A stretch of DNA of 64,000 nucleotides from a virus (lineage: Duplodnaviria > Caudoviricetes), in the IMG/VR virus record IMGVR_UViG_3300035698_011749, positions 497 to 64,496 of that record; one strand, 5' to 3'. The notes under the pieces are model-generated. The model was not told where the DNA came from and did not search any database. It saw only the letters and a list, made by a program, of their open reading frames with translations. The position numbers and the translations under genes were made by a program. How positions within the stretch are numbered: position 1 is the first letter of the stretch; the number at the start of each line of letters is the position of its first letter. Below are positions 1 through 43,419 of this stretch, piece by piece.

Positions 1-593
1 AATGGATCGAATTCAGTATTATTTAGAGTTTCTTTAATTTCTTCTGATAGCTCAGGTTTAGGTACAACTAAAGGTTCAGGTTCAGGGTCATAATCAGACC
101 GAGGAATTAATTCAATGCCTCCTTCTCCATCAGCTGTTTCCTTACTATCTGTTTCAGCAAGCCCGCCAAACTGTGTCTTGCTAATTGATCCTTGCAAAGC
201 AGTGATTTCAGCATCAATTTCTTCATCAGACTTAGTTTGAAAAACCATGTCGATGTTAAGTTTGTCTGGAGCTTTAAAACCAGACCTGTCAAGAACATCT
301 TTGGCAGCGTTAAGTTGAACAGATGCAGGAGCTTTCTGCTCGGGATCAAGCAATCGTCCGAGAGTTGTTAAAGCATTTTTGTTCATTGAAATAAGTTCTT
401 TTCTTACATCGATCGTAGCTTCTGTTATCTTGTCATTTAATCCATTCAAGTAAGCTTTGCCTAAAGGTGAATTTAAAACCTGAGAAATTGTTATTGTCGA
501 GACGCCAATACGTTCAGCTATCTCAGGCGCCTTGAATCCGTTAAAAGACATCTGGATTATGTTTCTGTGATGGGCTTTAAGTTCTTTAAGCAT
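1..593 (-). CDS. Terminase small subunit-like protein, 3' end outside the window; not in the ORF track
   Basis: Hand translation from ATG at 593 gives MLKELKAHHRNIIQMSFNGFKAPEIAERIGVSTITISQVLNS...VQLNAAKDVLDRSGFKAP..., open to the window edge. N-terminal HTH plus an AAKDVLDRxG segment typical of TerS; same strand as TerL at the other end. Confidence 0.7.
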   Translation of the reverse strand, partial: MLKELKAHHRNIIQMSFNGFKAPEIAERIGVSTITISQVLNSPLGKAYLNGLNDKITEATIDVRKELISMNKNALTTLGRLLDPEQKAPASVQLNAAKDVLDRSGFKAPDKLNIDMVFQTKSDEEIDAEITALQGSISKTQFGGLAETDSKETADGEGGIELIPRSDYDPEPEPLVVPKPELSEEIKETLNNTEFDP

Positions 594-628
594 GGCTTGC
601 CCTTATTCGCTATAAGTCTTCCTGTAAG

Positions 629-817
629 TTATTTAAGCGAGTCCTGTAATCGCTTATTTCGGTTTTTGATAGTCCTCGTGACAGATGAGCCAAGGTCACT
701 ATACGTTTGCTTCTTTTCTGGTGTTGGTGCTGGTGCTGGTTCTTGCGCTTTGATTTCTGGCCCAGCTTTTAATGCCTTCTGCATCTCTTGATGATATTTG
801 TTCATTATATCCTCCAA
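629..817 (-). CDS. Small hypothetical protein, first gene of the late arm (real start probably ATG at 805)
   Basis: ORF track; GGAGG RBS precedes MNKYHQ. Confidence 0.55.
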   Translation of the reverse strand: MEDIMNKYHQEMQKALKAGPEIKAQEPAPAPTPEKKQTYSDLGSSVTRTIKNRNKRLQDSLK

Positions 818-875
818 AGTGATTTATGGTTATTAATCTTTTCATTGCTTCTTCAGATAGTGATTATTTTGACCT

Positions 876-905
876 ATTGTACTATAGTCTAATGGGAGAT
901 GTCAA
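876..905 (-). promoter_or_regulatory. Sigma-70-type promoter for the leftward (late/packaging) arm
   Basis: Minus strand TTGACA-18 bp-TACAAT, with AT-rich upstream sequence. Confidence 0.65.
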
Positions 906-1079
906 GGGAAAAATTAGTATTTTTAATGTTTTTTTCACTGGAAAAAGTGCCTTTTGGAGTATTTAAAATCTCCCCTTGGCTATATATCCAGTAAAGTTGG
1001 CTAACCATTTAGCGTTGATAACCTGGTAAATGCTGCCAAAGTTAACGCAGCTAAAATCGTTCCCTGACTTCGTCAGTGT

Positions 1080-1093
1080 GTTCATTTATGAAC
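1080..1093. promoter_or_regulatory. Palindromic box GTTCATWWATGAAC, copy 1 of 5
   Basis: Other intergenic copies at 7106, 14723, 29183 and 55206. Confidence 0.75.
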
Positions 1094-1126
1094 AGCCAGC
1101 TTTGCCATTCTAACTCTTTGACTGCT

Positions 1127-1473
1127 TCAACTCGTTGCCTGTTTCAACTTGTTGGTTTTTTAACTTTTGGGTGTTGAGTCAAGTAGACGCTTAAAATTGC
1201 TGGGACTCGTAGAGATATATAGAAAGACTAATGCTCTATTTAAAATCGAGGCAACGACTTGCTTAAAGTTTCAATCAATCTAAAATTGTTCCCGTCAACA
1301 AGTTGACAGCTCAACAAGTTAATACCAATAGACTGGCATGATTATTGCAATTGGGAATTATACAGACTGGCATAGGTATTGCATGTGCAGTCTGGCACAA
1401 TGTTTGCATACCATTGAACTGGCATAGTTGTTGCATAGGTGACCTGGCATGGAAGTTGCATATCAACAAGTTG
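1127..1473 (+). repeat. Five TCAAC-N3-TTR motifs (IHF-core-like / CAAC-NN-GTTG quasi-palindromes)
   Basis: Copies at 1127, 1144, 1295, 1311 and 1463. TATCAACAAGTTG at 1461-1473 matches the IHF consensus WATCAANNNNTTR exactly. Confidence 0.55.
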
Positions 1474-1571
1474 GCATGGGTATTGCAATGGGTAGGTATG
1501 GCACGAGGTTTGCATATCAATATTTTTGAGCCTTTTAAACGATTAGCTGACCGTTTGGCACGCCTTTTGCA
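1334..1571 (+). promoter_or_regulatory. Tandem array of eight sigma-54 (RpoN) -24/-12 consensus elements
   Basis: TGGCA(C/T)-N5-TTGCA starts at 1334, 1368, 1393, 1420, 1445, 1472, 1499 and 1556; N5 spacers all differ. Confidence 0.9.
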
Positions 1572-1688
1572 ATTCCTTATTATATAGGGCGTTTTGGGTT
1601 TTGACAGCTCGACAAGATATAAAAACGTTTAAAAAGGATAGTGATTTTAATAGGTTATAAAATACTTTCAGAAAAGTGAAAAAAAGAC

Positions 1689-1717
1689 TTGACAAACCGG
1701 TTTGGGGTAATTATGAT
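1689..1717 (+). promoter_or_regulatory. Strong sigma-70-type early promoter
   Basis: TTGACA-17 bp-TATGAT with upstream A-tracts; lies before ORF 1792. Confidence 0.8.
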
Positions 1718-1791
1718 TAGAGCCAAATAAAACGGTGAACGGTTCTAACGGGCAGTAAGACCAAACTTTTTAAAATGAGAGGAGTAGCATC

Positions 1792-2271
1792 ATGGCAAAA
1801 TCGATTTATGACATCCTGGCGGACTTGGAAACAGAGACAAGTGTACCAGAACATGGAATGGTAGCGCATACCTTTCCACGTGACCTGTTGCCGACCGCGG
1901 AGGAGTTTGAAAACGGGGAGGAATTGCTCAATTGGGCCGAGGGTTTGGACGTTGTCCATGCCTGCCTGCAAAAAGGCGTGCAAAAATTCTTGATTGATCT
2001 GCGGGCAACTTTCAAAGCGGTCAAAAAAGATGAAACATGGACCTTTGAAAAAGGTCAGAAAGCGGTCGATGATGCGGTCTGGAACGTCACTAACCGGCCA
2101 TCAGTCAATGATAAGGAAGCTGTCAAAAAGAAAACGATTTTCGATGCAAACTTGGCAATAGCCAAAGCCATGACCGCGACAAAGGGAATCAGTGAGAAAA
2201 TGATCATTGATACTCTGACCACATCTTGCGGAGCTGAAATGGCGCAGGAAATTGTTGATTCAATCAAGTAA
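1792..2271 (+). CDS. Hypothetical early protein, 159 aa
   Basis: GAGGAG RBS, its own promoter and a downstream hairpin. Confidence 0.8.
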   Translation: MAKSIYDILADLETETSVPEHGMVAHTFPRDLLPTAEEFENGEELLNWAEGLDVVHACLQKGVQKFLIDLRATFKAVKKDETWTFEKGQKAVDDAVWNVTNRPSVNDKEAVKKKTIFDANLAIAKAMTATKGISEKMIIDTLTTSCGAEMAQEIVDSIK

Positions 2272-2287
2272 GTAACTTTTAACCATA

Positions 2288-2325
2288 GGTCCGGTTTGCT
2301 TGCATAGGAATCGGACCTTTCTTTT
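2288..2325 (+). terminator. Intrinsic terminator after ORF 1792
   Basis: AGGTCCG...CGGACCT stem followed by TTCTTTT. Confidence 0.6.
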
Positions 2326-2486
2326 GGATTTAATTCCTCTTGCCGGTTATGCCGGTCTACCGATCCTACCCGCCAAACCGTTTTAAGCCGCCAAACCGCC
2401 ACGACAAGCGACAATTCCTATCTACCCTAACCGACCTATGAACCAAACCGGGAAACAGCCTGTATGGCTGTGTTTTGGGGTGATTT

Positions 2487-2808
2487 AATGGTGATCGATG
2501 TAAACAGTATACAATAACCATAGTGCTGTTCGAAAGACAGACACCTAAAATTAGAGGGGAGGTTAATGGGTATAGGGATGTAATTGGTATAGGTATAGAG
2601 GGTAGGGTGGGGTGGGGGTCAGTCTTTCTTCTTAGAATTTTTTTTTTATGAATCCTCATTCATTTTTTGAACTGGGGAGGGCGCCACCCAATACCGGACC
2701 CCAACTCTCGATTACTAACTCACCCCAATTTGAACCCTTTGTAATATGAGCACAGACACCCCCCCAAAGAGGTGTGGTTATTGTATACTGTTTACATCGA
2801 TCACCATT
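2487..2808. repeat. Perfect 34-bp inverted repeat (2487-2520 / 2775-2808) around a G-rich then C-rich spacer
   Basis: AATGGTGATCGATGTAAACAGTATACAATAACCA and its exact reverse complement. Confidence 0.9.
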
Positions 2809-2858
2809 TTCTTGCCCACCAACCCATTGATAAATCAACCAACCAGCAGTTTGGGCTG

Positions 2859-3057
2859 GCAAGCCAGGTTGGTATTTCAACCAGTGGGTCAGCAAGCCGA
2901 TGTTAGGCTGGCAAGCCAGTCAGCCACACCAACCAGCTGGCATGTTCCAACTTTTGGCACATTTCAGCCAGCCAAGCCAGGCTCAAAAGTGGATCGGCAA
3001 GCCGATGTTAAAAGCTAAATCAGTTGGTACGAGCAAACCATTTTGCGTCAGCAAGCC
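2859..3057 (+). repeat. Cluster of GCAAGCC iteron-like repeats
   Basis: Exact copies at 2859, 2892, 2911, 2997 and 3051; variants at 2972 and 3033. Confidence 0.7.
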
Positions 3058-3099
3058 AGTAGGCATCAGCCAAACAGTTAGACAGGGCTGAAAAAGTTG

Positions 3100-3128
3100 T
3101 TGACAGTCACGGTTGGATGTGTTATTGT
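3100..3128 (+). promoter_or_regulatory. Sigma-70-type early promoter
   Basis: TTGACA-17 bp-TATTGT with an extended TG, upstream of the early gene cluster. Confidence 0.7.
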
Positions 3129-3158
3129 TTACACGTACACTAAATATTAACCCATTAC

Positions 3159-3851
3159 ATGAAAGGATCAGTTATGAAAAATTTTAATCTTGATGCAATG
3201 ACAGCAGTTTTTAAAGCGGCGATTGAGGAGATTAAAACAGTAGTTAAGAGCTTGCCGACAGAGGAAGCAAGAGAATATGTCGTTTTTATATTAATCCTTA
3301 TGGGCTGGAACCAGCAGGAAATGGGTTATATCATTCAAAAAGACGAAACGTTAAGATTGCTTTTTTCAGTTAATTTACAGTAAATTGGTTTAATGGTGAT
3401 TTTATTAATCAGTTAATTAAGGTTAAAGGTAAGAATGAAGCTAAAGTAATCTGTAAAAACCATTTGCTTCCTAATAGCTTTAAAATAGCTCTTAACTGGT
3501 TTAATAGATATGAGAGATATTCGAAAGAAACTTGGGAAAAAATCTTCAAATAAAAAGGCCAATATGAACCTCTTAACCATTATTTATTCCGAACAGATTG
3601 AATACTTGGAACCATTCAAAGCCAAAGCAACTCATTGGTTGCCAGAAATTTGGAAAGACCCACCAAAAGAATATCAACCTACCGATGTAATCTGCACTAC
3701 CAAGCAATCATACCTTGAGCTTGTAAAGACTCTCATTCAGGCAGGCAACATAAACCATTCAGAAGTCATTTATATTGTGAGCGATTCAACAGGGGCAGTT
3801 GCCTACACTTTTGATAAGGCAGGCAACTTTAATAACTTTTTCAAAATATGA
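3159..3851 (+). CDS. Two small hypothetical early proteins (3159/3174-3383; 3510/3564-3851)
   Basis: ORF track; co-oriented with the early operon. Confidence 0.55.
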
Positions 3852-3862
3852 AAGGAGCAACC

Positions 3863-4066
3863 ATGTATGTAGATCCAAATTTTAAAACCAAAAAGGCATT
3901 CAAAGAAGCAATATCAGCAGGTCAAAAAGTATCAGTATTCAGTCCTGGCATGTTTCCTGCCAAAACTGATGGTACTGAAACTATTGAAGGGCCACATTAT
4001 CCAAAACCACACACCTGGTATGCACAAGTACAAGTTAAAAATGGTTATGTGACTAAAGTTAGTTGA
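3863..4066 (+). CDS. Small phage protein (NFKTKK...EGPHYPKPHTWYA)
   Basis: AAGGAG RBS before ATG at 3863; motif recalled from other phage early proteins. Confidence 0.7.
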   Translation: MYVDPNFKTKKAFKEAISAGQKVSVFSPGMFPAKTDGTETIEGPHYPKPHTWYAQVQVKNGYVTKVS

Positions 4067-4159
4067 TTATTTACCCTGCCGATCATGGATCAGAGGAGTG
4101 AACAAACGTGCGCCCATTTAATTTGATTCACGGATTGATCGGCAGGCATGAGTAATCAA
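4063..4159 (+). ncRNA. Long intergenic hairpin (RNase III-site-like, or a small RNA)
   Basis: TTGATTATTTA/TGAGTAATCAA, CCTGCCGATCA/TGATCGGCAGG and GGATCAGA/TTTGATTC pair as nested stems. Confidence 0.55.
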
Positions 4160-4192
4160 CCGTTAACCTATAACAAAAAAGGAGTATGAGCC

Positions 4193-4639
4193 ATGAACAT
4201 TTTGAAGCAAGTATTACTTAATAAGGGATTTAAACAATCAGACAATTCAAAACTTAAAAATATTAATAGCTTTGCGCAATGCAACTGCGGGCGTATTCTT
4301 AATTCTAAAGGTTTGTGTCCATTTTGTCATAGCACTTTCATAGCAACAACTACCAAAAACTTTAAACTACGAAAGAAAGGAGCATAAATTATGATCGCTA
4401 AAAACATCTTTACAGAAGAAGTTATCAGAGATCTGGACCCGTCCGATAATGAAAGTATTTACTACTCGATGGACAAAAGAGACTGGGAATTTTATGAAAA
4501 GTTTAGTCCAGAAGATGGTTTTTCAACAAATCCGATTGCGATCCTCTTTATAGATCGGAAAAAAAGATACATTTTCAGTCTTGCTAATTTGATATATGTT
4601 TATGTCAGTACGGCTGGCCATCTGATTAGATCTTATTAA
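4193..4639 (+). CDS. Two small hypothetical proteins (4193-4387 with a CxC/CxxC Zn finger; 4391-4639)
   Basis: ORF track; AAGGAG RBS before each. Confidence 0.65.
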
Positions 4640-4651
4640 AAGGAATAAACC

Positions 4652-5203
4652 ATGACCATGCAAGAAATGCAAAATTGGATAGAACAAAAAACTGATCAAT
4701 ATATCGCAATTTGGAACAATCAGAGCGATGTAAAAGTCACCAATATTACAAGTCAATTCAATCTAAAAGGCTGTACGGCAGGCTATTTCTGCGCCAAGCC
4801 GGGCGGCAATTATTTTAGGTGGAACCTTTCATTGGCATTAGAAAACCAGTCCGAGTATCAACAAACTGTCGGCCATGAAGTGGCGCATTTAATTACCCGC
4901 ACTCTGGATAAAGTCAACAATCGAAAAAGCAATCCACATGGCTGGCTCTGGAAAAGTGTTATGCATTCACTTGGGCTGGCTTCAAAAAGGACACATAGTT
5001 ACAAAACAGAAAAGGCCAGAAAGGTCAAGCATCACATATCTTGGAATTGTCCATCTTGTGGAAGATCAGCCAAATTTACAATGACCAAATATCGAAACAT
5101 GCTCAAAAGTATGGTTTCATCTTCAGGCAGAACTACTTACCGATGTGATTGTGGCCAATATGTGAATGTTCTTAATGATTGTAAACCTGACATAGAGATA
5201 TAA
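4652..5203 (+). CDS. SprT-like zinc metalloprotease
   Basis: HEVAH, PHGWLWKSVM and C-terminal CPSC/CDC Zn ribbon. Confidence 0.85.
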   Translation: MTMQEMQNWIEQKTDQYIAIWNNQSDVKVTNITSQFNLKGCTAGYFCAKPGGNYFRWNLSLALENQSEYQQTVGHEVAHLITRTLDKVNNRKSNPHGWLWKSVMHSLGLASKRTHSYKTEKARKVKHHISWNCPSCGRSAKFTMTKYRNMLKSMVSSSGRTTYRCDCGQYVNVLNDCKPDIEI

Positions 5204-5217
5204 AGGCGGAGAATGAT

Positions 5218-5559
5218 ATGTTAAAAACTGATAAAGAACAGGAAATCTTGGAGCTTCAAGCAAAGAAAGAACTTTTAACTCCTGGACTCAAAGAAGCATT
5301 TGAAAACAAAACCAATGCATACAGAGCTTATATGGAATTAAACTTCAAATGGATGCGCCTAAGGGATGAGTTTGAAGCTTTTGATCGGGAAGAAAAACTA
5401 ATCTTTTTTAGCATTCCAAAGAATAAAACCAAGCCAACTAAGAAAATGCCTAAAGATTATGCTAAAGAAGCGCAAGAGAATGCAAAGAAAACTGCCATGA
5501 AAGCCTTGGAAAGTTTACCAGCCGAACTTCGGGAACAAATTTTAAAGCAATTTAAATAA
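5218..5559 (+). CDS. Hypothetical protein with C-terminal LESLPAELREQIL motif
   Basis: ORF track; RBS. Confidence 0.75.
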   Translation: MLKTDKEQEILELQAKKELLTPGLKEAFENKTNAYRAYMELNFKWMRLRDEFEAFDREEKLIFFSIPKNKTKPTKKMPKDYAKEAQENAKKTAMKALESLPAELREQILKQFK

Positions 5560-5574
5560 AGGAGAATTATAAAT

Positions 5575-5904
5575 ATGAAACGAGCTCTTTGCACTAATTG
5601 TAAATTTAAAACTACTGATAAATGTTGGCCAGGCCCAGTAATGCTTTGTGGACATCCTTATTTTAAAAAAGCTGTCACTTATGAAGATGCAATTATTAAA
5701 TGGATAACTATGGATAATGGCGATAAAGAGGCTGTTTCGGATAAGTGTCCATGGCCAGAAAGTGAATGTGTAAAAACTTCTAACAATTCGATTTCTTTGC
5801 CACCTATCCAAATAACAGAAAAGGCAAGTAAAATGTTATTAAAATCTTTAGAAAATTTGCCAGCCGAAGTTCGGCAACAGATATTGAATCAATGGAATGC
5901 ATGA
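5575..5904 (+). CDS. Cys-rich hypothetical protein with C-terminal LENLPAEVRQQIL motif
   Basis: ORF track; AAGGAG RBS. Confidence 0.75.
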   Translation: MKRALCTNCKFKTTDKCWPGPVMLCGHPYFKKAVTYEDAIIKWITMDNGDKEAVSDKCPWPESECVKTSNNSISLPPIQITEKASKMLLKSLENLPAEVRQQILNQWNA

Positions 5905-17566: not shown

Positions 17567-17654
17567 GCCCAAGTGGCGGAATAGGTAGACGCAAGGGACT
17601 TAAAATCCCTCGACCAAATTGGTTGTACGAGTTCGATTCTCGTCTTGGGCACCA
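17567..17654 (+). tRNA. tRNA-Leu (UAA)
   Basis: Acceptor stem GCCCAAG/CTTGGGC, D-loop GG, anticodon arm carrying TAA, long variable arm, GTTCGA T-loop and encoded CCA. Confidence 0.95.
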
Positions 17655-19781: not shown

Positions 19782-20285
19782 ATGACCAACTACGAAACGA
19801 TATCATCAGGCATTTGTCCGAAATGTCAAGAGGCTCTGCGTGGATCTGAGCATTCAGAGAACAATGGTTTTAATTATTACTGTGATAAATGCTTCCTGAG
19901 ATACATCTTTCAGGATGATATGGGGCCGGGGAGCTATACCACGAAGCCCATGACCGAGCAAACCGAGCAAGAGCGGCTTAACAGGCTGATGGCAGAGAAG
20001 GTGATGGGGTTTGTGGATGGTCCTGTAAAGGGGTGGTATTTCAAAAACCGCTATGATAGCGAGTTTATTAAGGCCTGGAACCCCTGGGGAGACATCGGGC
20101 AGGCGATGGAGTGCTTAATGGCCGCTAAGGGATATACAGGAGGTGTCTATCAAATTTCCGACGGAAGGTGGCTTGGATTCGTATCCCGGAGAAATGTTAT
20201 TGCCGATATCAAGGCTATAGCCACCGAACCATCAACCGCAATCGTCAAGGCGCTCGAAGCGGCGGTGAAAGGGGGAGGGGGATGA
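19782..20285 (+). CDS. Zn-ribbon + phage ABA-sandwich-like protein
   Basis: CPKC..CDKC; LNRLMAEKVMG...WNPWGDIGQAMECL...PSTAIVKA. Confidence 0.6.
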   Translation: MTNYETISSGICPKCQEALRGSEHSENNGFNYYCDKCFLRYIFQDDMGPGSYTTKPMTEQTEQERLNRLMAEKVMGFVDGPVKGWYFKNRYDSEFIKAWNPWGDIGQAMECLMAAKGYTGGVYQISDGRWLGFVSRRNVIADIKAIATEPSTAIVKALEAAVKGGGG

Positions 20286-20728
20286 AAACAATACTATTCA
20301 CACCTGATAAGGTTTGTGAGGAATTGGCTGTAATTATACAATTAATGTCAGAGCTTCCAGAGAATATGCCAAATAGTAATTGGGGCAAGGAGCATCTACT
20401 GTTGGACCTTCCCTACAAATGGAAGCTTTCTTTCGGTGTATATATTGGAGATGTCTTAAGGGGGCTTATATTTGCCTCTAATAAGTTGGGGAAATACCAT
20501 ATCCATTATATAACCGTGGATAAAGGCATGAGGGGCGGCGGGGCTGGAAAGGCCATGATCAGGGAGGCCGGAAAACTTGCTATGTTGTATGGGTTAAGTG
20601 GCATTACATTGAAGGTATTTAAATTGAATCAGCCCGCTATTGAATTTTACCGGAGGCAGGGATTCCAAGAAAAGAGCGCATCGGATGATTACCTGCTATT
20701 TGAAAAACTATCAGAGAGGATATCATAA
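20282..20728 (+). CDS. GNAT acetyltransferase
   Basis: VDKGMRGGGAGKAMI and NQPAIEFYRRQGF; start at ATG 20282. Confidence 0.85.
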   Translation: MKTILFTPDKVCEELAVIIQLMSELPENMPNSNWGKEHLLLDLPYKWKLSFGVYIGDVLRGLIFASNKLGKYHIHYITVDKGMRGGGAGKAMIREAGKLAMLYGLSGITLKVFKLNQPAIEFYRRQGFQEKSASDDYLLFEKLSERIS

Positions 20729-20770
20729 AAATAGGGGTTCAACTTTTTAAATGGTGAAAGGGGGAGGGGG

Positions 20771-22639
20771 ATGAAAATCAAAAACTGGGAGTGCCCACAC
20801 TGTAAAATGGATTCAGGGGCAATGATTGAAGATCACGACTGCTTTGACTGGCAAATGCACTCACCGAACACCATGAAGCAACTTTGGAGATGTGATAACT
20901 GTAATGGGTATTATTTCGTCTACTTTGAACTATCTTCAATAACGCCTCTCTGGGAGACAGAAAGAAAGGAGGCAAAATGAAAAAGCTATTACTCGCGGCA
21001 ATCGCGCTGGCCCTGTTCGCAGGACCGGCATGGGCAGAACCCCGAATCGAGAACCGGAATGACTGCGTCCGAGCATGGGCGCTGCATGAGTACAAAGCGG
21101 ATAACGATATTTTCACCCTGCCGCCCGGTTGCGAGAGACCGGAAGACCCGGAACCGGAGTGGGTATATCAGGCCGTCATAGACTACGTCCCAGCGGGATG
21201 TGAGTTTATCGAATGGCGGCAGATCGGCGGGAGGGCTGTGGCGATTGTGAAGTTTAGGCGGGAGGTGGAGTGATTATGGATATTACAAAATGCCCTGATT
21301 GCGGAGCAGAAATACAATATTACCACCATAAGAATCCTGCGGTTACAAGGTTAGTATGCAAAGAAAAATGCCAAGGGTGGAAAGTGTTGAAGGAGATTAA
21401 TCGCCCAATGGCACCCATTAAAAACGGTAATTATTGGAACTGTCCGATATGCGGAGACAGTTACAAATATAAGGGTGGGGCTAATGGGTGTTGTTCCCGC
21501 CATGTTGAGGAGACCAAGCCATGACCTACAAAGCGATGTGCGACGACGAGAGGATTCAGGGATTGTGGGTTCCGAAGGTGGGGGACAGGGTAAACATGGG
21601 GATTCTCTTAAAAATAGACGATGTAGACCCGGCAGCCCAAATACAATGGTATTATACTACGACCGGTAGATATCAACGAGCAGCCCTCACATGGCTCCCC
21701 TCGTTAGAGGATATCGGGGAGTGGTTGGAAGGCTTTAGGTGGCAGTATAAGCATGTTGATATGGCTTGCGGAGATGCTCACTGGACATATGATTGGACAA
21801 ACATAGAGGATGTTAAGTTATTTTCTGCCGACACCGAAGTCAAGGCCCGTCTTATGCTCTGGATGTGGGTTAAGCACGCCCTGACCTGGGCCGGGGAGTG
21901 GAAGCCTCATGGATTATTTTAGGAGGGAAAGAAATGGTAAAAAAATGGTTGTTTCAGGAAATCTGGATGAATAATCTAGCTCTTCTGCTTATTAAGGCCA
22001 TTTCCTTAATATTTGGTTTTATTTTAGGCTTTGCATTTAGCCTTTATCCCTAACCGCACTACCAGGCTTTTGCCGAAAGGAGAAAAATGATCACCAATAT
22101 ATACATCAGGGAAGAAGTAGGCGACCGACAGGAAATCACATCGTCTATGATTGCACGGGCATACAGAAAAGCCTTAACGGAATCATGGGACAGTGAAAAC
22201 AAACGGATGGCCCAAATACAGGGTCAGCTTGCTCAGGCGCGGGGTGTGGCTTATAGTAATTATGGCCTCTGCGCTAATAATATGCTTGGTTATCAACTTG
22301 GGAGCAGCTTGTTCGGCAGATGCCCATGCTGTGGCAAATAACCGCACTACCGGGCTTGCTGAAAGGAGAATGGAAATGCTTAATGATTTCAAATCAGGTC
22401 AAATAATGAACAATAAAAAAGAACCAATTCATTGTTGCCTACATAAAAATATTGTTCCTCTCGAATTTGGTTTTGCACGTAAGACTTGGCCTAATGGATA
22501 TAAAGCTGAACCGAATTATAATTTTGCTACAAATCTAATTGGTGCAGATACTGTTAGAGTTAGGCTTTACTTTTGTCTTGATTGTAAATGTGAAATTAAA
22601 GCACCAAATCCAGGACAGTCTAAAAGGGATAGACTTTAG
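20771..22639 (+). CDS. Cluster of small accessory ORFs (20771, 20977 with signal peptide, 21270, 21521, 22087, ~22376), several with Zn-ribbon motifs
   Basis: ORF track; overlapping start/stop codons; visibly higher GC up to about 22370. Confidence 0.65.
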
Positions 22640-23625: not shown

Positions 23626-23851
23626 AAACCATACTAAAAACAGATTAAGTGAAAGATATAATGTTATTTTTACTAACCAAGATTTAATAAATATGGTAAA
23701 TTTAATTCAATCAAGAGAATCAAAAATAATCAAAGCTTTTTCAAATACCAGAACTTTACATAAAATTATTTATAAAGACATTGAAATGATTGTTATTTAT
23801 AACAAGTACTATAAAGAAATCGCAACAGTTTTTGAAAAGGATATATTATGA
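23585..23851 (+). CDS. Basic hypothetical protein
   Basis: Likely start at MKKQYN within ORF 23459-23851. Confidence 0.55.
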   Translation: MKKQYNRKKKTNFRNHTKNRLSERYNVIFTNQDLINMVNLIQSRESKIIKAFSNTRTLHKIIYKDIEMIVIYNKYYKEIATVFEKDIL

Positions 23852-26397
23852 TAATACCAAAAATTAGTTCTACAACTACCAAAAAAGAGCAGAAAAAAAC
23901 ATTTGACGCTCTTGTAATAGAATGTCCACCAACTGATAATATTAAAACTGCAAAAATTGCTATGGTAGGTGAAGCACCAAGCAATATTGAATTGTTAAAA
24001 GGCGAGCCTTTTATTGGTCCTGCTGGAGCACAACTTAATAGAGTTTGTGCTGCTATCAGATTAGCAAGATATCAAATTTATTTGACTAATGCCTGTAAAG
24101 CAAAATTACCAAATAATAATTCTGATAAACTTTGGACAATAAAAGGTTATCGACATCCTGATTGGAAAGAATTACAAACTCGCCTGATTGATGAACTTGC
24201 AGAATTTGATGGTAAAGTAATAATGTTGCTTGGTGTAACAGCAATGATGTTATTGATTGATACACCACGCTTTAATTCAATAGGCAAATATCGCGGAAGT
24301 TTTTATCCTGCCGAAGATTTCCCACATTTAAAAAACAAATTATCCGGAAAAGTAATTGGCTTATCTTATCATCCATCTTTTACAATGGATTACAAACAGC
24401 CAGTTCATTTCTATACAATGATTGCTGACTTTAGCAAGGCATTAAAAATTATTGACAAGCCTGAACTTTTGAATAATAATACAGATATCAAAATTCAATC
24501 ATCATTAGATGAAATTCTAAAATTCTATGCATTAGTAAAAACTAAAGAATATGTAGGATTTGATATTGAAGCTACACCGAAATTCATTACTTGTTTTAGT
24601 CTTGCAGTATATCATGAAGACAAAATAATTTCAATGTCAATTCCAATTATGAATAATCAAGGTAATATGTGGTCTGTTGAAGAAGAGATAAAAATTTGGA
24701 TTGGTTTGGCAGAAATATTAGAAGATCCAAATATCAAAATACTTTGCCAAAATGGAATGTTTGATGTAATGTTTACACTTCGTACAATGAATATTAAAAC
24801 AGATAATTTCTTCTTTGATACAATGTTAGCGCAGCATAGAGTATATACAGAACTTCCAAAAGGTCTTGATTATTTAACAGCTGCTTATACATATTATCCA
24901 TACTACAAAGATGAAGGAAAACAATCACATCTTAAAGTTATTAAAGACTGGAAACAGTATTGGAATTATAATGCTAAAGATGCTGCATATCTTTTACCAA
25001 TTACCGAAGCTTTAATTACAGAATTGGAAGAATTTGAATCTACAAAATCTATGGATTATATGATGAATCTCCATAAACCATTAATGGAAATGGAATTTAA
25101 TGGGATATTAACTGATAGAAAAGGAATTATAAAAGCTTGTAAAGAATATAACGAAAAAATAATTGTAATACAAAAAGATTTAAATGAATTAGTCAGTAAA
25201 CAAACTAACAAAAGACTTAAAGAAATTAATCCTAACTCTCCAAAACAAATGATTGCTTATTTTTATGGATTTTGTATGATTAAGCCTTACATTAGCCGAA
25301 TATCAGGTAATGCTACTTGCGATTCAGTTGCATTACATCGAATAGCCAAGAAAGGAAAGAAAGGAGCTGAAGAAGCTAAACTTGTAATTAAGATACGTAA
25401 ATATAAGAAATTAGTTTCAACTTATTTTGAAGTACCAATAGATAACGATAATCGTCTTCGATGTAACCATAAAATAACTGGAACCGTATCTGGTAGAATA
25501 GCTACTGAACGTACTTATTTTGGCACTGGAACAAATCTTCAAAATCAACCTTATCTCTTTAAATATTATCTTATTTCTGATCCAGATTGGATTTTATGCG
25601 AATGTGACCTTGCCAAGGCAGAAGCTCACGTAGTTGCGTATCTTACTCAAGATGCAAATATGATTCAATCATTTGAATCAGGAATTGATGTACATTCATT
25701 TAATGCGAGCAAAATATTTAACATACCTATTGAAGATGTTATTAAAGAAGCAAAAGAAAAGAAGATGGATCCAAAAAGTACAATGCGTTTCATGGGTAAA
25801 AAAGTTGTCCATGCGAGCAACTATTCAATGGGACCGCAAACCTTTTCAGATAACCTCGCTAAAGAAGAAGTTTTTATGTCACAGTCTGAATGTAAAATAC
25901 TTCTTCAAAATTATCAGGATCGTTTTCCTGGTCTAAAAAGATGGCATCGTTCAATTGAAGAAGAAGTTCAAAATTCAAGAGTTCTTTATAATTTATTTGG
26001 CAGTCCAAGAAGATTTCTTGGTGTTATGGGGCCAGCCTTATTTAGAAATGCTTACAGCTATAAGCCACAATCAACAGTTGCTGAACTTCTAAATCGTGGA
26101 ATGATTAAAATTGCTAATGATTCCAGGCTTGGCAAAGATGGTTTTGATATTAGATTATTAACAACTGTCCACGATTCAATTCTATTTCAATTCCATAAAA
26201 GTAAACTTCCCAACCTGCTTCAAATCTTACTAATAATTGAAGACCATATGACACATACATTTACTTACAAAGGTAGGAGCTTTACCATCGGCTTGGATGC
26301 AAAAATTGGTACTCAATGGGCTGGTAAGACAGCAGAAATTAATCCATTTACCCAAGAAGAAATTGATGCATCAATTGAAAAGATTGGATTAGATTAA
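23848..26397 (+). CDS. polA: Family A DNA polymerase with N-terminal uracil-DNA-glycosylase-like domain and 3'-5' exonuclease
   Basis: VGEAP..E...PFIGPAG, YHPS (UDG family 4-like); FDIE, QNGMFD, YNAKD (exonuclease); TVSGR, DLAKAE, R...K...H...Y and VHDS. Confidence 0.93.
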   Translation: MIIPKISSTTTKKEQKKTFDALVIECPPTDNIKTAKIAMVGEAPSNIELLKGEPFIGPAGAQLNRVCAAIRLARYQIYLTNACKAKLPNNNSDKLWTIKGYRHPDWKELQTRLIDELAEFDGKVIMLLGVTAMMLLIDTPRFNSIGKYRGSFYPAEDFPHLKNKLSGKVIGLSYHPSFTMDYKQPVHFYTMIADFSKALKIIDKPELLNNNTDIKIQSSLDEILKFYALVKTKEYVGFDIEATPKFITCFSLAVYHEDKIISMSIPIMNNQGNMWSVEEEIKIWIGLAEILEDPNIKILCQNGMFDVMFTLRTMNIKTDNFFFDTMLAQHRVYTELPKGLDYLTAAYTYYPYYKDEGKQSHLKVIKDWKQYWNYNAKDAAYLLPITEALITELEEFESTKSMDYMMNLHKPLMEMEFNGILTDRKGIIKACKEYNEKIIVIQKDLNELVSKQTNKRLKEINPNSPKQMIAYFYGFCMIKPYISRISGNATCDSVALHRIAKKGKKGAEEAKLVIKIRKYKKLVSTYFEVPIDNDNRLRCNHKITGTVSGRIATERTYFGTGTNLQNQPYLFKYYLISDPDWILCECDLAKAEAHVVAYLTQDANMIQSFESGIDVHSFNASKIFNIPIEDVIKEAKEKKMDPKSTMRFMGKKVVHASNYSMGPQTFSDNLAKEEVFMSQSECKILLQNYQDRFPGLKRWHRSIEEEVQNSRVLYNLFGSPRRFLGVMGPALFRNAYSYKPQSTVAELLNRGMIKIANDSRLGKDGFDIRLLTTVHDSILFQFHKSKLPNLLQILLIIEDHMTHTFTYKGRSFTIGLDAKIGTQWAGKTAEINPFTQEEIDASIEKIGLD

Positions 26398-37681: not shown

Positions 37682-37706
37682 GGTGCATCCTCCAAATATA
37701 TGTCAT

Positions 37707-40695: not shown

Positions 40696-43419
40696 TTATT
40701 TCATCCCAGTTACGCAATTTAAAAGTTCTTCAATAGAACTTATTTGTCCATCATTTTCTATATAAGCATCATGTGCATCTATATCTACAGAATCATTTTC
40801 TGTCTTACCAGCCACAGATATAGGCATATTGATAGTAGTATTTTTAAGAGCTTCTATTTGTTCAGGCGAATATTCATCAATTTTTGGCACTTTCGGTGTT
40901 TCAGGAATAGCTATTCCACGCTTAACAAGCTCCCTGTCGGAGACACTACTCCCGTCCTCAAGCTCATAAATAGGAACAGGCTTGCCAGTCAAGGTGTCAA
41001 AGTACTTGAACGTAGCCTTCGGCGGAGCTTTGGCATTTTCACGGGTTTCAAACTGAACATCACCTATTTCTGCATCATAAGTAGCTTGTTGATCACGTTG
41101 CTGTTCTAATTGCTTTTCATTTTCTAATTGCTGTTCACTTTTGAACGTACTTGGTTCGCCTTCTGTCTTGGCGCGTTCTTCCGCAAGAACTTCTTGCCTA
41201 TAAGTTTCTTTATCAAAAATGACATTTGGCTCTACCTTACCGCCAAGTCTTTCAGTTGCTTTATCAATAAAAGTAGGGTCTTGTTGACCTAATATATGAG
41301 ATTCAGGAGTTTCAATTAATGTAGAACTAACTCCTTCATTAATAAGTTTTTCTCTATTAAGAAGTGTGCGCTGCTGAAAATCACGAATTAATTTATCAAT
41401 TTGAAATTTTTCTTCTGGTGTTTTTGCTAATGATTTAAGTTCTGCGATTTTTTGATTATGTCTTTCATCAAGTTCTTGTTCAGCAGGCCACCAAAGACTG
41501 TCAATTTGCTGCTGTCTTTCTTGCCCAGCTAAATCAATAGAATCAGGAATAAACTTTTGGGCTAAATGTAACTGATCTCTTTCATAAACTTTCCATTCTT
41601 CATCAATTGCTTGTTGAATTTCTTGAGAGCGTTTAATTTCTGAGGATTCTTTAATTTTCTTAATTCTTTTTTGTCGATTTATTTCTGCCTGTTTTTGATC
41701 TTTTATTGCCTGCTGTTCTCGATTCCAAACAAGTTCTTCTTTAGAATCTGCGGCTGGTATTTTAGTTTTTTTACGATCACCAAGCCAGTCTTTAAACATG
41801 GTTTGGTCCATTTTAGTAATATTGCCAAGACCTTTCCAACCTGGATCATAGTTGTTGAGATATAACTCTTTAGCAGCTTCTTCAGAATTAACTCCCATAA
41901 TTACTTTGTGTTCATCAAATTTACCAGTTTGTGGATCTATTTGGTCAACAATATAAACACGCGGACTTACTGTTGTGCCTGGCTTAATAAATACATCAAC
42001 TTGATCACCATCTTTTCCCTCAGTTCTGGCAAAATATCCATAATGACCAGCCATTTGAGTAGACCAGCTTTCTCCATCTTGATCTACTCCAGATCTAAAA
42101 GAGCCGGCAGGATTTTCAATTTTAATATCTAAATTATTTACTTTAATCGGAGCTTTTTTATAATTACCAGCTTCTTTTTGTTTGTCACTTGGATTAATAT
42201 TAACATCTTCTTTATTTATTTGATCATCAACATTTTCAAGACCAACTTCTTTCATTAGACGCTTTTGCAGCTTTGTTGACAAGTCAAGTTTTTTATTTAA
42301 ATTAGCAGTGACTTCTTCAACAGTTGTACCATAATCTTTAGTTCGACCAAGCACTGCTTGAGGATCATTTAACCAATTTTTAATAGCATCTACATCTTGA
42401 CCTATTTGAATAATTGATGCATTAATATTTTCTGACCCATTAGAAATGATGTTTTCAGCACGTTGATTTATTAACTTATCATCTTTTTGTGTCTGCTGCT
42501 TTTCAACTGCTTGAACAAAAGCATTTGCACCGCCACCCATTGCAACACCAGCCAACAATCCAGTTGCACCAGCCTTGCCTAAACCTTCATCTAATGGTTT
42601 GCCAAGCGCTGCATTAGACCAAACCTGCTCTTGAATAGATTGTGGTAATTCTTCTAAAACGCCTTCAGTAAAACCACCTTCAAGAATTCTTCGTGCAATA
42701 CCTTTATTGGATTTTTCAGCAAATTTACCTTTTGCAAGTAATGTATCAATATCACCGATCTTGTATTTTTGTGCAATTCTACCACTAATAGCTCCAATAA
42801 CACTGGTAATGGCACCAGAAGCAAGATTTTTAGCAATTTGTCCAGCAGTTAATGTACCAGTTTCAGTTTGTTGGCGTGTCTGTTCTGCTCCCATTCCAGC
42901 AGATACAGCACCTTCACCAATTGCACCAGCAATATATGGAGCAGCAACCATGCCAGTTTTTAACAAACCTTTTGCAATAGCAGTGCCACCAAACATAGAT
43001 GGAAGTGATTCAAGAACTGTATGTACAATTGTACTTGGATTTTCAATAGATGTAGCTAATGTATCTAAAAAGCCGTCAGCTTCGCTAACTTTTCTAAAAG
43101 CTTCTTTTTGCGGATCAGAATATAAACTACCAAGCATCCTATGTGTTTCTTTAGGATCATATCCAAGATATTCTAAACCTTTGCCAGCATAACCACCAGA
43201 AACAAGATCAGCTAAACCAACAGCAGTTTCACCAACACCAATAATGCTTTTAGCTGCAGTTACACCAACATCACCTACATAATCAGAAAAACTTCGATCA
43301 GTTGATCTTGGATCTATGCCAGGATTAACAATATTCAATCCTGAAGCTGATTGAGTAGTATCTTCATCCCATTTTATTCCAGCTTGCACTGGTTGTTCAT
43401 TATTCCAAGTAATAGGCAT
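40696..43419 (-). CDS. Ejection/polyvalent protein with inorganic-pyrophosphatase-like (InPase) domain
   Basis: QKEAGNYKK...IENPAGS.RSG...YGY....GKDGDQVDVF...DEHKV; Gly/Ala-rich N-terminal region. Confidence 0.75.
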   Translation of the reverse strand: MPITWNNEQPVQAGIKWDEDTTQSASGLNIVNPGIDPRSTDRSFSDYVGDVGVTAAKSIIGVGETAVGLADLVSGGYAGKGLEYLGYDPKETHRMLGSLYSDPQKEAFRKVSEADGFLDTLATSIENPSTIVHTVLESLPSMFGGTAIAKGLLKTGMVAAPYIAGAIGEGAVSAGMGAEQTRQQTETGTLTAGQIAKNLASGAITSVIGAISGRIAQKYKIGDIDTLLAKGKFAEKSNKGIARRILEGGFTEGVLEELPQSIQEQVWSNAALGKPLDEGLGKAGATGLLAGVAMGGGANAFVQAVEKQQTQKDDKLINQRAENIISNGSENINASIIQIGQDVDAIKNWLNDPQAVLGRTKDYGTTVEEVTANLNKKLDLSTKLQKRLMKEVGLENVDDQINKEDVNINPSDKQKEAGNYKKAPIKVNNLDIKIENPAGSFRSGVDQDGESWSTQMAGHYGYFARTEGKDGDQVDVFIKPGTTVSPRVYIVDQIDPQTGKFDEHKVIMGVNSEEAAKELYLNNYDPGWKGLGNITKMDQTMFKDWLGDRKKTKIPAADSKEELVWNREQQAIKDQKQAEINRQKRIKKIKESSEIKRSQEIQQAIDEEWKVYERDQLHLAQKFIPDSIDLAGQERQQQIDSLWWPAEQELDERHNQKIAELKSLAKTPEEKFQIDKLIRDFQQRTLLNREKLINEGVSSTLIETPESHILGQQDPTFIDKATERLGGKVEPNVIFDKETYRQEVLAEERAKTEGEPSTFKSEQQLENEKQLEQQRDQQATYDAEIGDVQFETRENAKAPPKATFKYFDTLTGKPVPIYELEDGSSVSDRELVKRGIAIPETPKVPKIDEYSPEQIEALKNTTINMPISVAGKTENDSVDIDAHDAYIENDGQISSIEELLNCVTGMK

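What the first reader, a model, noticed from the sequence alone, without database searches (positions are those of the whole stretch)
1334..1571. Eight tandem sigma-54 promoter elements: a possible RpoN-holoenzyme decoy or loading array
Seen: TGGCA(C/T)-N5-TTGCA occurs eight times on one strand (1334, 1368, 1393, 1420, 1445, 1472, 1499, 1556), with start-to-start spacings of 34, 25, 27, 25, 27, 27 and 57 bp. Only the -24 and -12 boxes and their spacing are conserved; the N5 spacers all differ. This argues for selection on the motif rather than recent tandem duplication. Established: this is the sigma-54 consensus, and sigma-54 holoenzyme forms stable closed complexes that need an AAA+ enhancer-binding protein to fire. 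No such activator is visible in the window, and the downstream gene has its own sigma-70 promoter at 1689. Inference: the array may titrate host sigma-54 RNAP and silence sigma-54 regulons such as Psp, motility or nitrogen as the genome replicates. Alternatively it may load RNAP for DNA entry or tie infection to host state. A 25-27 bp period is about 2.5 helical turns, which would put neighbouring sites on alternating faces. I know of no described phage with such an array.
Basis: partly seen in the sequence, partly recalled or inferred. Interest (0 to 1): 0.92.

Follow-up and report, generated by a model that had tools for sequence, protein, structure and literature searches.

The report
Tandem sigma-54 promoter array in phage
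A 64-kb phage carries eight back-to-back copies of the DNA signal read by the bacterial sigma-54 RNA polymerase just ahead of its early genes, and similar arrays occur in over a hundred other uncultured phage genomes, which points to an undescribed way for phages to engage this host enzyme.

Summary
TGGCAY-N5-TTGCA occurs eight times on the + strand at 1334-1571, against 0.09 expected per window. The ten core bases are identical in all eight units. The other positions have drifted almost to random: 0.32 pairwise identity against 0.26 expected.

The array lies in the divergent region between the terS/late arm and the early/replication arm of a 64.5-kb phage. It points into the early genes.

It is not unique. 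Doublets of the motif occur in at least 119 IMG/VR contigs; a reversed control pattern gave 1. Arrays there hold 2-8 sites at a 25-30 bp period. The N5 spacing and half-site order are strict, and the unconstrained flanking positions match the sigma-54 consensus.

Relatives of this phage carry 0, 1, 4 or 8 sites. Site 8 is the conserved one and overlaps a sigma-70-like promoter.

No phage activator was found. Five named relatives have no site, and six literature searches found no description.

Best reading: genuine host sigma-54 holoenzyme sites acting as an activator-gated tandem early promoter. A decoy role is not excluded. Host and transcription starts are unknown.

The parts
1334..1349 (+). 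sigma-54-type site 1, TGGCATGATTATTGCA
   Evidence: PWM 21.4 bits. The identical 16-mer is the first site of relative L090.
1368..1383 (+). sigma-54-type site 2
   Evidence: PWM 24.4 bits.
1393..1408 (+). sigma-54-type site 3
   Evidence: PWM 20.3 bits.
1420..1435 (+). sigma-54-type site 4
   Evidence: PWM 26.6 bits.
1445..1460 (+). sigma-54-type site 5
   Evidence: PWM 24.3 bits.
1472..1487 (+). sigma-54-type site 6
   Evidence: PWM 28.0 bits.
1499..1514 (+). sigma-54-type site 7 (TGGCACG form)
   Evidence: PWM 19.6 bits.
1556..1571 (+). sigma-54-type site 8 (TGGCACG form), the site conserved in relatives
   Evidence: PWM 20.0 bits. Homologous site with TTGCW and a downstream aTCCTTATTATATAG in L090, L009, L010, L199 and L200.
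1555..1583 (+). sigma-70-like promoter overlapping site 8 (TTGGCA-17-TATTAT)
   Evidence: 10 of 12. The -10-like TATTAT/TATATA is conserved in relatives.
1689..1717 (+). near-consensus sigma-70-type early promoter (TTGACA-17-TATGAT)
   Evidence: 11 of 12. A TTGACAA box lies 93-170 bp after the last site in all six relatives.
1792..2271 (+). first early gene (159 aa, no family) downstream of the array
   Evidence: no Pfam or PHROG family. 72% and 67% identical homologues in L009 and L010.
876..905 (-). sigma-70-type promoter for the divergent terS/late arm (TTGACA-18-TACAAT)
   Evidence: 11 of 12.
3..593 (-). terminase small subunit gene (runs off the window start), first large gene of the divergent arm
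   Evidence: phrog_2538, E 2.4e-14; weak sigma-70 region-4-like HTH.
1296..1320 (+). two direct CAACAAGTT repeats just upstream of site 1; further exact copies at 1146-1154 (-) and 1464-1472 (+). Candidate operator or enhancer.
   Evidence: all 4 exact copies in the 64-kb window lie between 1146 and 1472. D7, I2.
1183..1293 (.). conserved DNA element of about 100 nt between terS and the array, present in seven relatives including ones without sigma-54 sites
   Evidence: 31 invariant columns. No consensus RNA structure.
42973..42988 (-). isolated ninth sigma-54-type site inside the 907-aa ORF, with a weaker one starting at 42955
   Evidence: PWM 17.6 and 11.1 bits. Belonging to the system is uncertain.

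Best explanation
The eight elements are genuine binding sites for the host's sigma-54 RNA polymerase holoenzyme. They form a tandem -24/-12 promoter array at the head of the rightward early operon. The array grew from one ancestral promoter, site 8, which overlaps a sigma-70-type promoter and is kept in relatives. Each site can hold a closed complex. Because the phage encodes no AAA+ activator, firing depends on an active host enhancer-binding protein, acting from solution or from an unidentified enhancer. Transcripts then run rightwards through the sigma-70 promoter at 1689 into the early genes. Multiplying the sites raises the chance that scarce sigma-54 holoenzyme is captured. It would tie extra early transcription to the host's physiological state. 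Shown: the motif, its selection, its orientation, its conservation and its recurrence in many phages. Inferred: binding by sigma-54, dependence on a host activator, and productive transcription. My odds are about 0.7 that sigma-54 holoenzyme binds these sites and about 0.45-0.5 that their main role is productive, activator-gated transcription.
For: (1) Motif quality. Eight exact TGGCAY-N5-TTGCA sites against 0.09 expected. The core is invariant while non-core positions sit at 0.32 identity against 0.26 random.
(3) In 467 distinct sites from those contigs the positions I did not constrain follow the sigma-54 consensus. T 69% or C 15% precedes TGG. G 68% follows TGGCAY. The next position is a purine in 80%. 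The consensus mrNrYTGGCACGrNNNTTGCWNNw is recalled from Barrios et al. 1999. 'TGGCACN5-7TTGCT' was read in passages of PMC12316311.
(4) Rigid bipartite geometry. 430 sites have N5; 0 have N2-4 or N6-8 (2 have N9). 430 of 454 TGGCAY occurrences in the array regions are paired. The order TGGCA..TTGCA occurs 376 times, the reverse order 0 times.
(5) The motif is the same beside different terminase small subunits: phrog_2538 here, phrog_1482 in L013, no PHROG family in the large clade. It occurs in 34 unlinked groups of loci. That fits a conserved host factor better than a phage protein.
(6) Orientation. All eight sites point into the early arm. In the 119 loci the next ORF downstream (80 aa or more, within 1.5 kb) is co-oriented in 73, opposed in 16 and absent in 30. 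Among the 33 unlinked loci the counts are 17, 7 and 9.
(7) Site 8 is conserved in six relatives together with TTGCW in what would be a sigma-70 spacer. It lies 93-170 bp ahead of the TTGACAA early promoter.
(8) Window site 1 and L090 site 1 are the identical 16-mer, although the TerS proteins are only 64% identical.
(9) The array is not coding and not an RNA structure. Unit lengths of 25 and 27 shift the reading frame, and the spanning ORF has no peptide repeat. RNA folding is no better than shuffles, z +2.16 and +0.93.
(10) No phage RNA polymerase was seen among the 28 proteins scanned, so host polymerase must transcribe the genome.
(11) A cultured Vibrio phage, VPT02, has 3 such sites, all within the first 3.4 kb of 120.5 kb.
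Against: No activator was found. PF00158 is absent from this record and from 0 of 50 other array-bearing viral records, 19 of them at least 90% complete. No enhancer has been identified.
The host is unknown, so the presence of rpoN cannot be checked.
The early operon already has a near-consensus sigma-70 promoter (1689) and a second sigma-70-like one over site 8. Sigma-54 transcription is therefore not needed for early expression.
Sites 25-27 bp apart are closer than the roughly 30-bp closed-complex footprint (recalled), so not all eight can be used at once as promoters.
Three relatives (L202, L203, L204) have no site, three have one, and L201 is truncated. The array is therefore dispensable.
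In other phages 28 sites lie on the opposite strand within arrays and 16 arrays face an opposed ORF.
Across 85 arrays the last site is no closer to consensus than the others.
Confidence: 0.5

Rival explanations
1. Sigma-54 sponge or decoy. The sites bind sigma-54 or its holoenzyme but are mostly non-productive. As the genome replicates, hundreds to thousands of high-affinity sites trap the scarce sigma factor in closed complexes. That would shut down host sigma-54 regulons such as stress, motility, nitrogen or RNA repair.
For: The motif and selection evidence is the same as for the best explanation. There is no activator in this phage or in 0 of 50 others. Early genes have their own sigma-70 promoters. 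Sites are packed at 25-30 bp, the commonest spacing (188 intervals), which suits dense binding better than independent promoters. Some arrays mix both orientations (28 opposite-strand sites). The last site is not privileged across 85 arrays.
Against: Orientation is strongly biased towards the downstream genes (73 against 16 overall, 17 against 7 in unlinked loci), and a pure decoy does not need that. The ancestral state in this family is a single conserved site in a promoter position, and one site is useless as a sponge. Relatives with 0 or 1 site exist. No literature precedent for a DNA decoy of a sigma factor turned up.
Confidence: 0.2
2. The repeats are binding sites for another DNA-binding protein and resemble the sigma-54 consensus only by coincidence. 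Candidates are a TerS recognition (pac) array, iterons of the replication origin, or operators of a phage regulator.
For: The array lies next to terS here and in several other lineages. Cumulative GC skew is lowest at the window start. Relatives L009 and L204 carry different short-repeat arrays at the same place. In 9 of 119 loci exact DnaA boxes lie within 300 bp of the array: 18 boxes in 80 kb against 3 in 852 kb elsewhere. So in some phages the region may be an origin.
Against: The same 16-bp bipartite motif, including flanking preferences that equal the sigma-54 consensus, occurs beside three different TerS types and in 34 unlinked locus groups. Half-site order is strictly asymmetric, 376 to 0. 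No DnaA box lies near the window array. The window has a separate origin-like non-coding region at 2272-3158 with its own iterons and a 34-bp perfect inverted repeat. Gene-strand bias alone can produce the GC skew.
Confidence: 0.15
3. Sigma-70 recruitment. The (T)TGGCA boxes act as -35-like hexamers (5 of 6 to TTGACA) that concentrate the housekeeping holoenzyme near the early promoters.
For: T precedes TGGCA in 69% of sites. Site 8 has a properly spaced -10-like TATTAT that is conserved in relatives. Site 1 keeps an AATTAT remnant (D4).
Against: This does not explain the invariant TTGCA at exactly N5 in 430 of 430 sites. It does not explain the G/R preference after TGGCAY. Sites 2-7 have no -10-like hexamer at 16-18 bp: one search lists none there.
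Confidence: 0.05
4. A functionless by-product of tandem duplication of one promoter.
For: Other arrays contain near-identical neighbouring units, for example L034 and L011. So duplication is the mode of growth.
Against: In the window the units have diverged to near-random outside the core, yet 80 of 80 core bases are intact. Partly orthologous sites persist between the window and L090 at 64% TerS identity. Arrays recur in many lineages.
Confidence: 0.05

Closest known systems
Bacterial sigma-54 (-24/-12) promoters such as glnAp2, nifH and pspA
   Same: GG and GC elements 10 bp apart and the extended YTGGCACGr-N3-TTGCW preferences. Placement upstream of an operon and co-oriented with it.
   Different: Eight copies in tandem at 25-27 bp. 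No cognate activator gene or recognisable enhancer. Located in a lytic-type phage genome. Bacterial genomes gave mostly doublets for the same search. One example is a three-site locus before an Hsp20-like gene in Poribacteria.
Overlapping sigma-54/sigma-70 promoters of the small RNA gene glmY (Reichenbach et al. 2009, recalled, not read here)
   Same: Site 8 combines a sigma-54 motif with a sigma-70-like -35/-10 pair on the same stretch, and both parts are conserved in relatives.
   Different: The predicted starts are a few bases apart rather than identical. Seven further sigma-54-only sites lie upstream. No experimental data exist.
Tandem early promoters at the leading end of phage genomes: T7 A1/A2/A3 for host RNA polymerase, N4 P1-P3 for virion RNA polymerase (recalled)
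   Same: Several co-oriented promoters stacked at the start of the early region. The genome has early and late arms converging in the middle.
   Different: Those promoters are activator-independent. Sigma-54 closed complexes need ATP-driven remodelling. Whether the array lies near a physical genome end is unknown, since the record is 'linear' with no end repeats.
Non-productive or intragenic sigma-54 binding sites mapped in E. coli and Salmonella (Bonocora et al. 2015, recalled; PMC3844500 seen only as a search listing and abstract start)
   Same: Holoenzyme binding sites that need not drive a gene. This is the precedent for binding without an obvious activator.
   Different: Those sites are scattered single sites, not dense arrays under evident selection.
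Titration devices: 6S RNA for sigma-70 holoenzyme, the datA locus for DnaA (recalled)
   Same: The concept of a nucleic-acid sink for a host factor, which is the decoy reading.
   Different: This is a DNA promoter array for sigma-54. No such sink is known for any sigma factor; the search found none.
Vibrio phage VPT02 (Vipunavirus, T5-like)
   Same: Three exact sigma-54-type sites, all in the repeat-rich first 3.4 kb of the genome. One lies in a non-coding region that also holds DnaA-box-like repeats.
   Different: Single dispersed sites on both strands, not a tandem array. An unrelated phage family.

Membership tests
sigma-54-dependent (-24/-12) promoter | GG and GC dinucleotides 10 bp apart within TGGCAC-N5-TTGCW | tested here: met
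   8 of 8 sites are exact. In other phages 430 sites have N5 and 0 have N2-4 or N6-8.
sigma-54-dependent (-24/-12) promoter | Extended consensus at flanking, weakly conserved positions | tested here: met
   Y before TGG in 84%, G after TGGCAY in 68%, then a purine in 80% of 467 sites. The window units show the same trends. The consensus itself is recalled, plus passages of PMC12316311.
sigma-54-dependent (-24/-12) promoter | Upstream of, and co-oriented with, a transcription unit | tested here: met
   All 8 sites point to the gene at 1792. 73 co-oriented against 16 opposed in other loci.
sigma-54-dependent (-24/-12) promoter | A cognate AAA+ enhancer-binding protein (PF00158) and an upstream enhancer | tested here: not met
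   No PF00158 in the record or in 0 of 50 other array-bearing records. The CAACAAGTT repeats are only a candidate enhancer. A host activator remains possible.
sigma-54-dependent (-24/-12) promoter | Host encodes rpoN | not testable with these tools
   The host is unknown. Shine-Dalgarno use in 29 of 44 genes and TTGACA-type promoters only argue against a Bacteroidota-type host for this phage.
sigma-54-dependent (-24/-12) promoter | Transcription start about 12 nt downstream of the GC; holoenzyme binding | not testable with these tools
No binding data exist.
Iteron-type replication origin | Direct repeats conserved over their whole length, next to an initiator gene, with DnaA boxes or an AT-rich unwinding element | tested here: not met
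   Only a bipartite 5+5 core is conserved. No DnaA box enrichment in the window. A separate iteron-rich non-coding region lies at 2272-3158. In 9 of 119 other loci DnaA boxes do lie beside the arrays.
Terminase small-subunit recognition (pac/cosB) array | Repeats near terS whose sequence co-varies with the TerS family | tested here: not met
   Adjacency is met. The motif is identical beside phrog_2538, phrog_1482 and unclassified TerS-position proteins.
Structured RNA or repeat peptide | Conserved fold or reading frame | tested here: not met
   z +2.16 and +0.93 against shuffles. No Rfam match at E of 1 or below except one weak snoRNA hit elsewhere. The frame shifts between units.

The most novel reading that the evidence does not exclude
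Dense arrays of sigma-54 holoenzyme sites are a widespread, undescribed phage device. They are present in at least 119 viral contigs from many lineages. They trap the host's sigma-54 polymerase in closed complexes on the incoming and replicating genome. They would act as a sink that silences host sigma-54 regulons, or as a pre-loaded train of polymerases released by a host stress or nutrient activator or by an unrecognised phage activator that is not an AAA+ protein.
Probability: 0.25. Interest if true: 0.9.

Novelty: new variant of a known kind. Interest (0 to 1): 0.78.

Why it matters
Sigma-54 transcription differs from all other bacterial transcription: the polymerase binds tightly but stays locked until an ATPase opens it. 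Phage use of this system is essentially unexplored. A class of phages that stack up to eight such sites at the head of their early genes, with no activator of their own, raises three possibilities. Infection may be gated by the host's nutrient or stress state. A new kind of activator may exist. Or these arrays may be the first DNA sink for a sigma factor. The arrays are frequent in uncultured, apparently abundant podovirus-like phages. They could therefore bear on how environmental phages sense host physiology. They also give a simple sequence signature for finding such phages, and possibly for narrowing hosts to lineages that have rpoN.

Tried and rejected
RNA element: the Rfam scan of 800-3600 gave only a sub-threshold snoRNA hit at 2979-3057. 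Folding of the array on either strand is no better than shuffles. Rejected.

Coding repeat: the ORF at 1345-1587 spans the array but has no repeated peptide. Rejected.

Phage-encoded sigma-54 or activator: PF00158 and PF04552 are absent. Pfam and PHROG scans of 28 window proteins show no RNA polymerase, sigma factor or AAA+ activator. Small early ORFs without a family remain unexamined.

Named relatives: BLAST of 900-2300 and of the array against 50,697 phage records gave no meaningful match. 0 of 5 named TerL or PolA relatives has a site: EBPR podovirus 1, Chlorobiaceae phage CV-1-33, Stenotrophomonas StenR_269, Xanthomonas DES1 and Pelagibacter HTVC103P. The 128-aa neighbour protein of the large clade has no match in named phages.

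Host inference: only weak pointers. One contig binned with a Sphingobacteriales MAG is a phage 87-88% identical in protein to L023/L068. One Epsilonproteobacteria-binned contig shares proteins with L014/L120. Large MAG contigs with 5-6 sites (L150, L133) carry only ORFans plus one DUF7227 protein. No host is assigned.

'Anchor site' idea: across 85 arrays the last site is not closer to consensus than the others. It holds only within the window's own family.

DnaA boxes: none near the window array.

Literature: six searches ran and found no description of tandem sigma-54 sites in phage genomes. I read passages only of PMC7693777 (a putative sigma-54-like protein in Pectobacterium phage Q19), of bioRxiv 10.64898/2026.10.06.757011 (Htm, a phage protein resembling enhancer-binding proteins but lacking GAFTGA) and of PMC12316311 (consensus). 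Supplementary tables of PMC12316311 with class-specific matrices might help place the host.
Full report
WHAT IS THERE. The pattern TGGCAY-N5-TTGCA occurs at 1334, 1368, 1393, 1420, 1445, 1472, 1499 and 1556 on the + strand. It occurs once more at 42973-42988 on the - strand. The chance expectation is 0.09 per window, and 0 of 100 shuffles reached 9. Aligned on the motif, the ten core bases are identical in all eight units. The 21 other positions compared have 0.32 pairwise identity against 0.26 expected from composition. Faint traces of duplication remain (D1, D4, D10). The units are therefore old copies in which only the bipartite core has been kept.

The stretch is not a gene. Unit lengths of 25 and 27 shift the frame, and the spanning ORF has no repeated peptide. 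It is not a structured RNA either: z is +2.16 and +0.93 against shuffles, and Rfam gave nothing.

CONTEXT. The window is bases 497-64496 of a 64,496-base virus record, rated 97% complete. Genes from 1.8 to 30 kb run rightwards. They encode a UvrD-type helicase, a PD-(D/E)XK nuclease, an AAA_24 ATPase, an NAD ligase, a methylase, a UDG-PolA fusion and a DUF3987 protein. Genes from 64 kb down to 31 kb run leftwards. They encode TerL, portal, head and tail proteins. The leftward arm continues across the window start with a terminase small subunit at 3-593, phrog_2538.

The array lies in the 970-bp divergent region between the two arms and points into the early arm. That region also holds three sigma-70-type promoters:
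- one for the late arm at 905-876, 11 of 12;
- one for the early arm at 1689-1717, 11 of 12;
- a third at 1555-1583, TTGGCA-17-TATTAT, 10 of 12, which overlaps site 8.

No RNA polymerase, sigma-54 activator domain or sigma-54 DNA-binding domain is encoded.

RELATIVES OF THIS PHAGE. Searches with the first early protein and with TerS found relatives at 59-72% protein identity; L090 came from the doublet scan of viral contigs. Their counts of sites at the homologous place are:
- window: 8;
- L090: 4, plus one copy spoiled by a deletion;
- L200: 4;
- L009, L010 and L199: 1 each;
- L202, L203 and L204: 0;
- L201: truncated.

The single site in the one-site relatives is the homologue of site 8. In six genomes it reads tTGGCAC-N5-TTGCW followed by aTCCTTATTATATAG. 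It lies 93-170 bp before the TTGACAA early promoter. TTGCW is kept in what would be a sigma-70 spacer, so the sigma-54 element itself is under selection. The conserved TATTAT/TATATA fits a -10 box. Site 8 therefore looks like an overlapping sigma-54/sigma-70 promoter.

Window site 1 and L090 site 1 are the same 16-mer, although the two TerS proteins are 64% identical. Part of the array is therefore old. L009 and L204 carry other short-repeat arrays at this place.

THE ARRAY IS ONE OF A CLASS. The same pattern read backwards gave 1. In 596 Gb of prokaryote genomes it gave 62 stretches. Most of those are doublets. One is a coding repeat (L158), one is a three-site locus shared by several Poribacteria, and several are short contigs that look like phage.

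In the 119 viral loci the largest array per locus has 2 sites in 29, 3 in 34, 4 in 26, 5 in 17, 6 in 11, 7 in 1 and 8 in 1. Spacing peaks at 25-30 bp (188 intervals). A second peak at 46-47 bp often has a site on the other strand in between.

Three measures that my search did not impose point to sigma-54:
- In 467 distinct sites the flanking positions follow the extended consensus. T 69% or C 15% precedes TGG, G 68% follows TGGCAY, and the next position is a purine in 80%. The consensus is recalled from Barrios et al. 1999; TGGCACN5-7TTGCT was read in PMC12316311.
- The spacer is N5 in 430 sites and never N2-4 or N6-8, and 430 of 454 TGGCAY are paired.
- The order TGGCA..TTGCA occurs 376 times and the reverse order never.

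Linked by shared proteins, the loci fall into one large group of 86 and 33 unlinked loci. The large group has a 128-aa protein in the TerS position, an M15 peptidase, TerL, an SU10-type portal, a T7-type primase-helicase and PolA. Its PolA is about 50% identical to that of pelagiphage HTVC103P.

The proteins in the TerS position belong to different families: phrog_2538, phrog_1482, or none. One identical motif beside unrelated phage proteins is best explained by a conserved host protein.

Orientation: the next ORF downstream is co-oriented in 73 loci, opposed in 16 and absent in 30. Among unlinked loci the counts are 17, 7 and 9.

None of the 50 array-bearing records examined (47 of the 119 doublet-scan loci plus 3 TerS relatives) encodes PF00158. 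None of five named relatives has a single site. One cultured Vibrio phage, VPT02, has three sites, all in its first 3.4 kb.

HOW IT MOST LIKELY WORKS. I take the sites to be sigma-54 holoenzyme binding sites, with odds of about 0.7. Orientation, the conserved promoter position of site 8 and the lack of a phage polymerase favour a promoter array that feeds the early operon. Firing would depend on a host enhancer-binding protein, because the phage has none. Several sites would raise capture of a scarce holoenzyme and make activation from solution more likely. These last steps are inference.

The facts that sit badly with a simple promoter are these:
- Two sigma-70 promoters already serve the operon.
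- The 25-27 bp packing is tighter than a closed-complex footprint (recalled).
- Some other phages have arrays in mixed orientation.
- Some relatives have no site.

A phage or other protein that happens to share the motif (pac site, origin, operator) gets about 0.15. The reasons are the position next to terS and the DnaA boxes beside arrays in 9 of 119 loci. None lies near this array, and the window has a separate origin-like region at 2272-3158.

KNOWN OR NEW. Sigma-54 promoters, overlapping sigma-54/sigma-70 promoters (glmY, recalled) and stacked early promoters in phages (T7, N4, recalled) are all known. Dense sigma-54 arrays in phage genomes were not found in six full-text searches. The nearest items were a putative sigma-54-like protein in a Pectobacterium phage (PMC7693777, passages) and a phage protein resembling enhancer-binding proteins (bioRxiv 10.64898/2026.10.06.757011, passages). 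I file the finding as a new variant of a known kind. If the decoy or pre-loading reading proves right it would be new in kind.

LIMITS. The host is unknown. Shine-Dalgarno use in 29 of 44 genes and TTGACA-type promoters argue only against a Bacteroidota-type host for this phage. There are no binding or transcript data.

Noticed in passing
window 2272-3158: An 890-bp stretch without a convincing gene. It has a 34-bp perfect inverted repeat (2487-2520 / 2775-2808) enclosing 254 bp. It also has four CTGGCAAGCCAG-type repeats (2847-3059) and CCAAACCG-type repeats. It may be the replication origin or an invertible or mobile segment.
   Followed up: partly
window 2600-2618: The only G-quadruplex-type motif in the 64-kb window (GGGTAGGGTGGGGTGGGGG) lies inside that inverted-repeat-flanked segment, in a genome of about 35% GC.
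   Followed up: partly
viral loci L011-L129, within 150 bp upstream of the arrays: C-rich tracts (C4 or more, then again C4 or more) precede the arrays in 45 of 109 usable loci. Only 4 of the 30 unlinked loci have one. Background is 0.03 per kb. Function unknown.
   Followed up: partly
viral loci, e.g. L021, L033, L084: Pairs of exact DnaA boxes lie within 300 bp of the sigma-54 arrays in 9 of 119 loci: 18 boxes in 80 kb against 3 in 852 kb elsewhere. In those phages the region may double as an origin or gather several host-factor sites.
   Followed up: partly
window 42955-42988 (- strand): A ninth exact sigma-54-type site (17.6 bits) and a weaker one 33 bp downstream (11.1 bits) lie inside the 907-aa ORF 40696-43419. 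That ORF matches endolysin, virion-protein and DarB-like PHROGs. This may be an internal promoter or chance.
   Followed up: partly
window 1183-1293: A conserved DNA element of about 100 nt (blocks AAAATTGCT, TATATAGAAAGACTAAT, AAATCGAGGCATCG, AATTGTTCCC) is present in seven relatives, including those without sigma-54 sites. It has no consensus RNA structure. It may be a protein-binding site such as a pac or IHF-type site.
   Followed up: partly
window 1080-1093: The palindrome GTTCATTTATGAAC is conserved, with variants, in L090, L199, L200 and L202 at the same relative place. It looks like an operator.
   Followed up: no
window 1146-1472: All four exact copies of CAACAAGTT in the window lie here: two inverted copies upstream (one with 1 mismatch), two direct copies just before site 1, and one between sites 5 and 6.
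   Followed up: partly
window 20000-22000 and 36000-40000: Islands of 44-47% GC in a genome of about 33% GC. The first holds a GNAT acetyltransferase at 20168-20728. These may be recent acquisitions.
   Followed up: no
window 23848-26397 and 17567-17654: DNA polymerase A fused to an N-terminal uracil-DNA glycosylase domain, and a tRNA-Leu(TAA) gene.
   Followed up: no
L206 (Vibrio phage VPT02, record 573-5623): The non-coding 1.3 kb after gene 007 holds a sigma-54-type site, DnaA-box-like TGTGGATAA repeats and several other repeat families (AGGTGCAAAT, TCTGGATGGCTA). It is a dense landing region at the left end of a T5-like genome.
   Followed up: partly
L131 and ten other Poribacteria loci (genome contigs): A conserved three-site sigma-54 locus (spacings 62-65 and 23) lies upstream of an Hsp20-like gene. 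It is an example of tandem sigma-54 promoters in bacteria.
   Followed up: no
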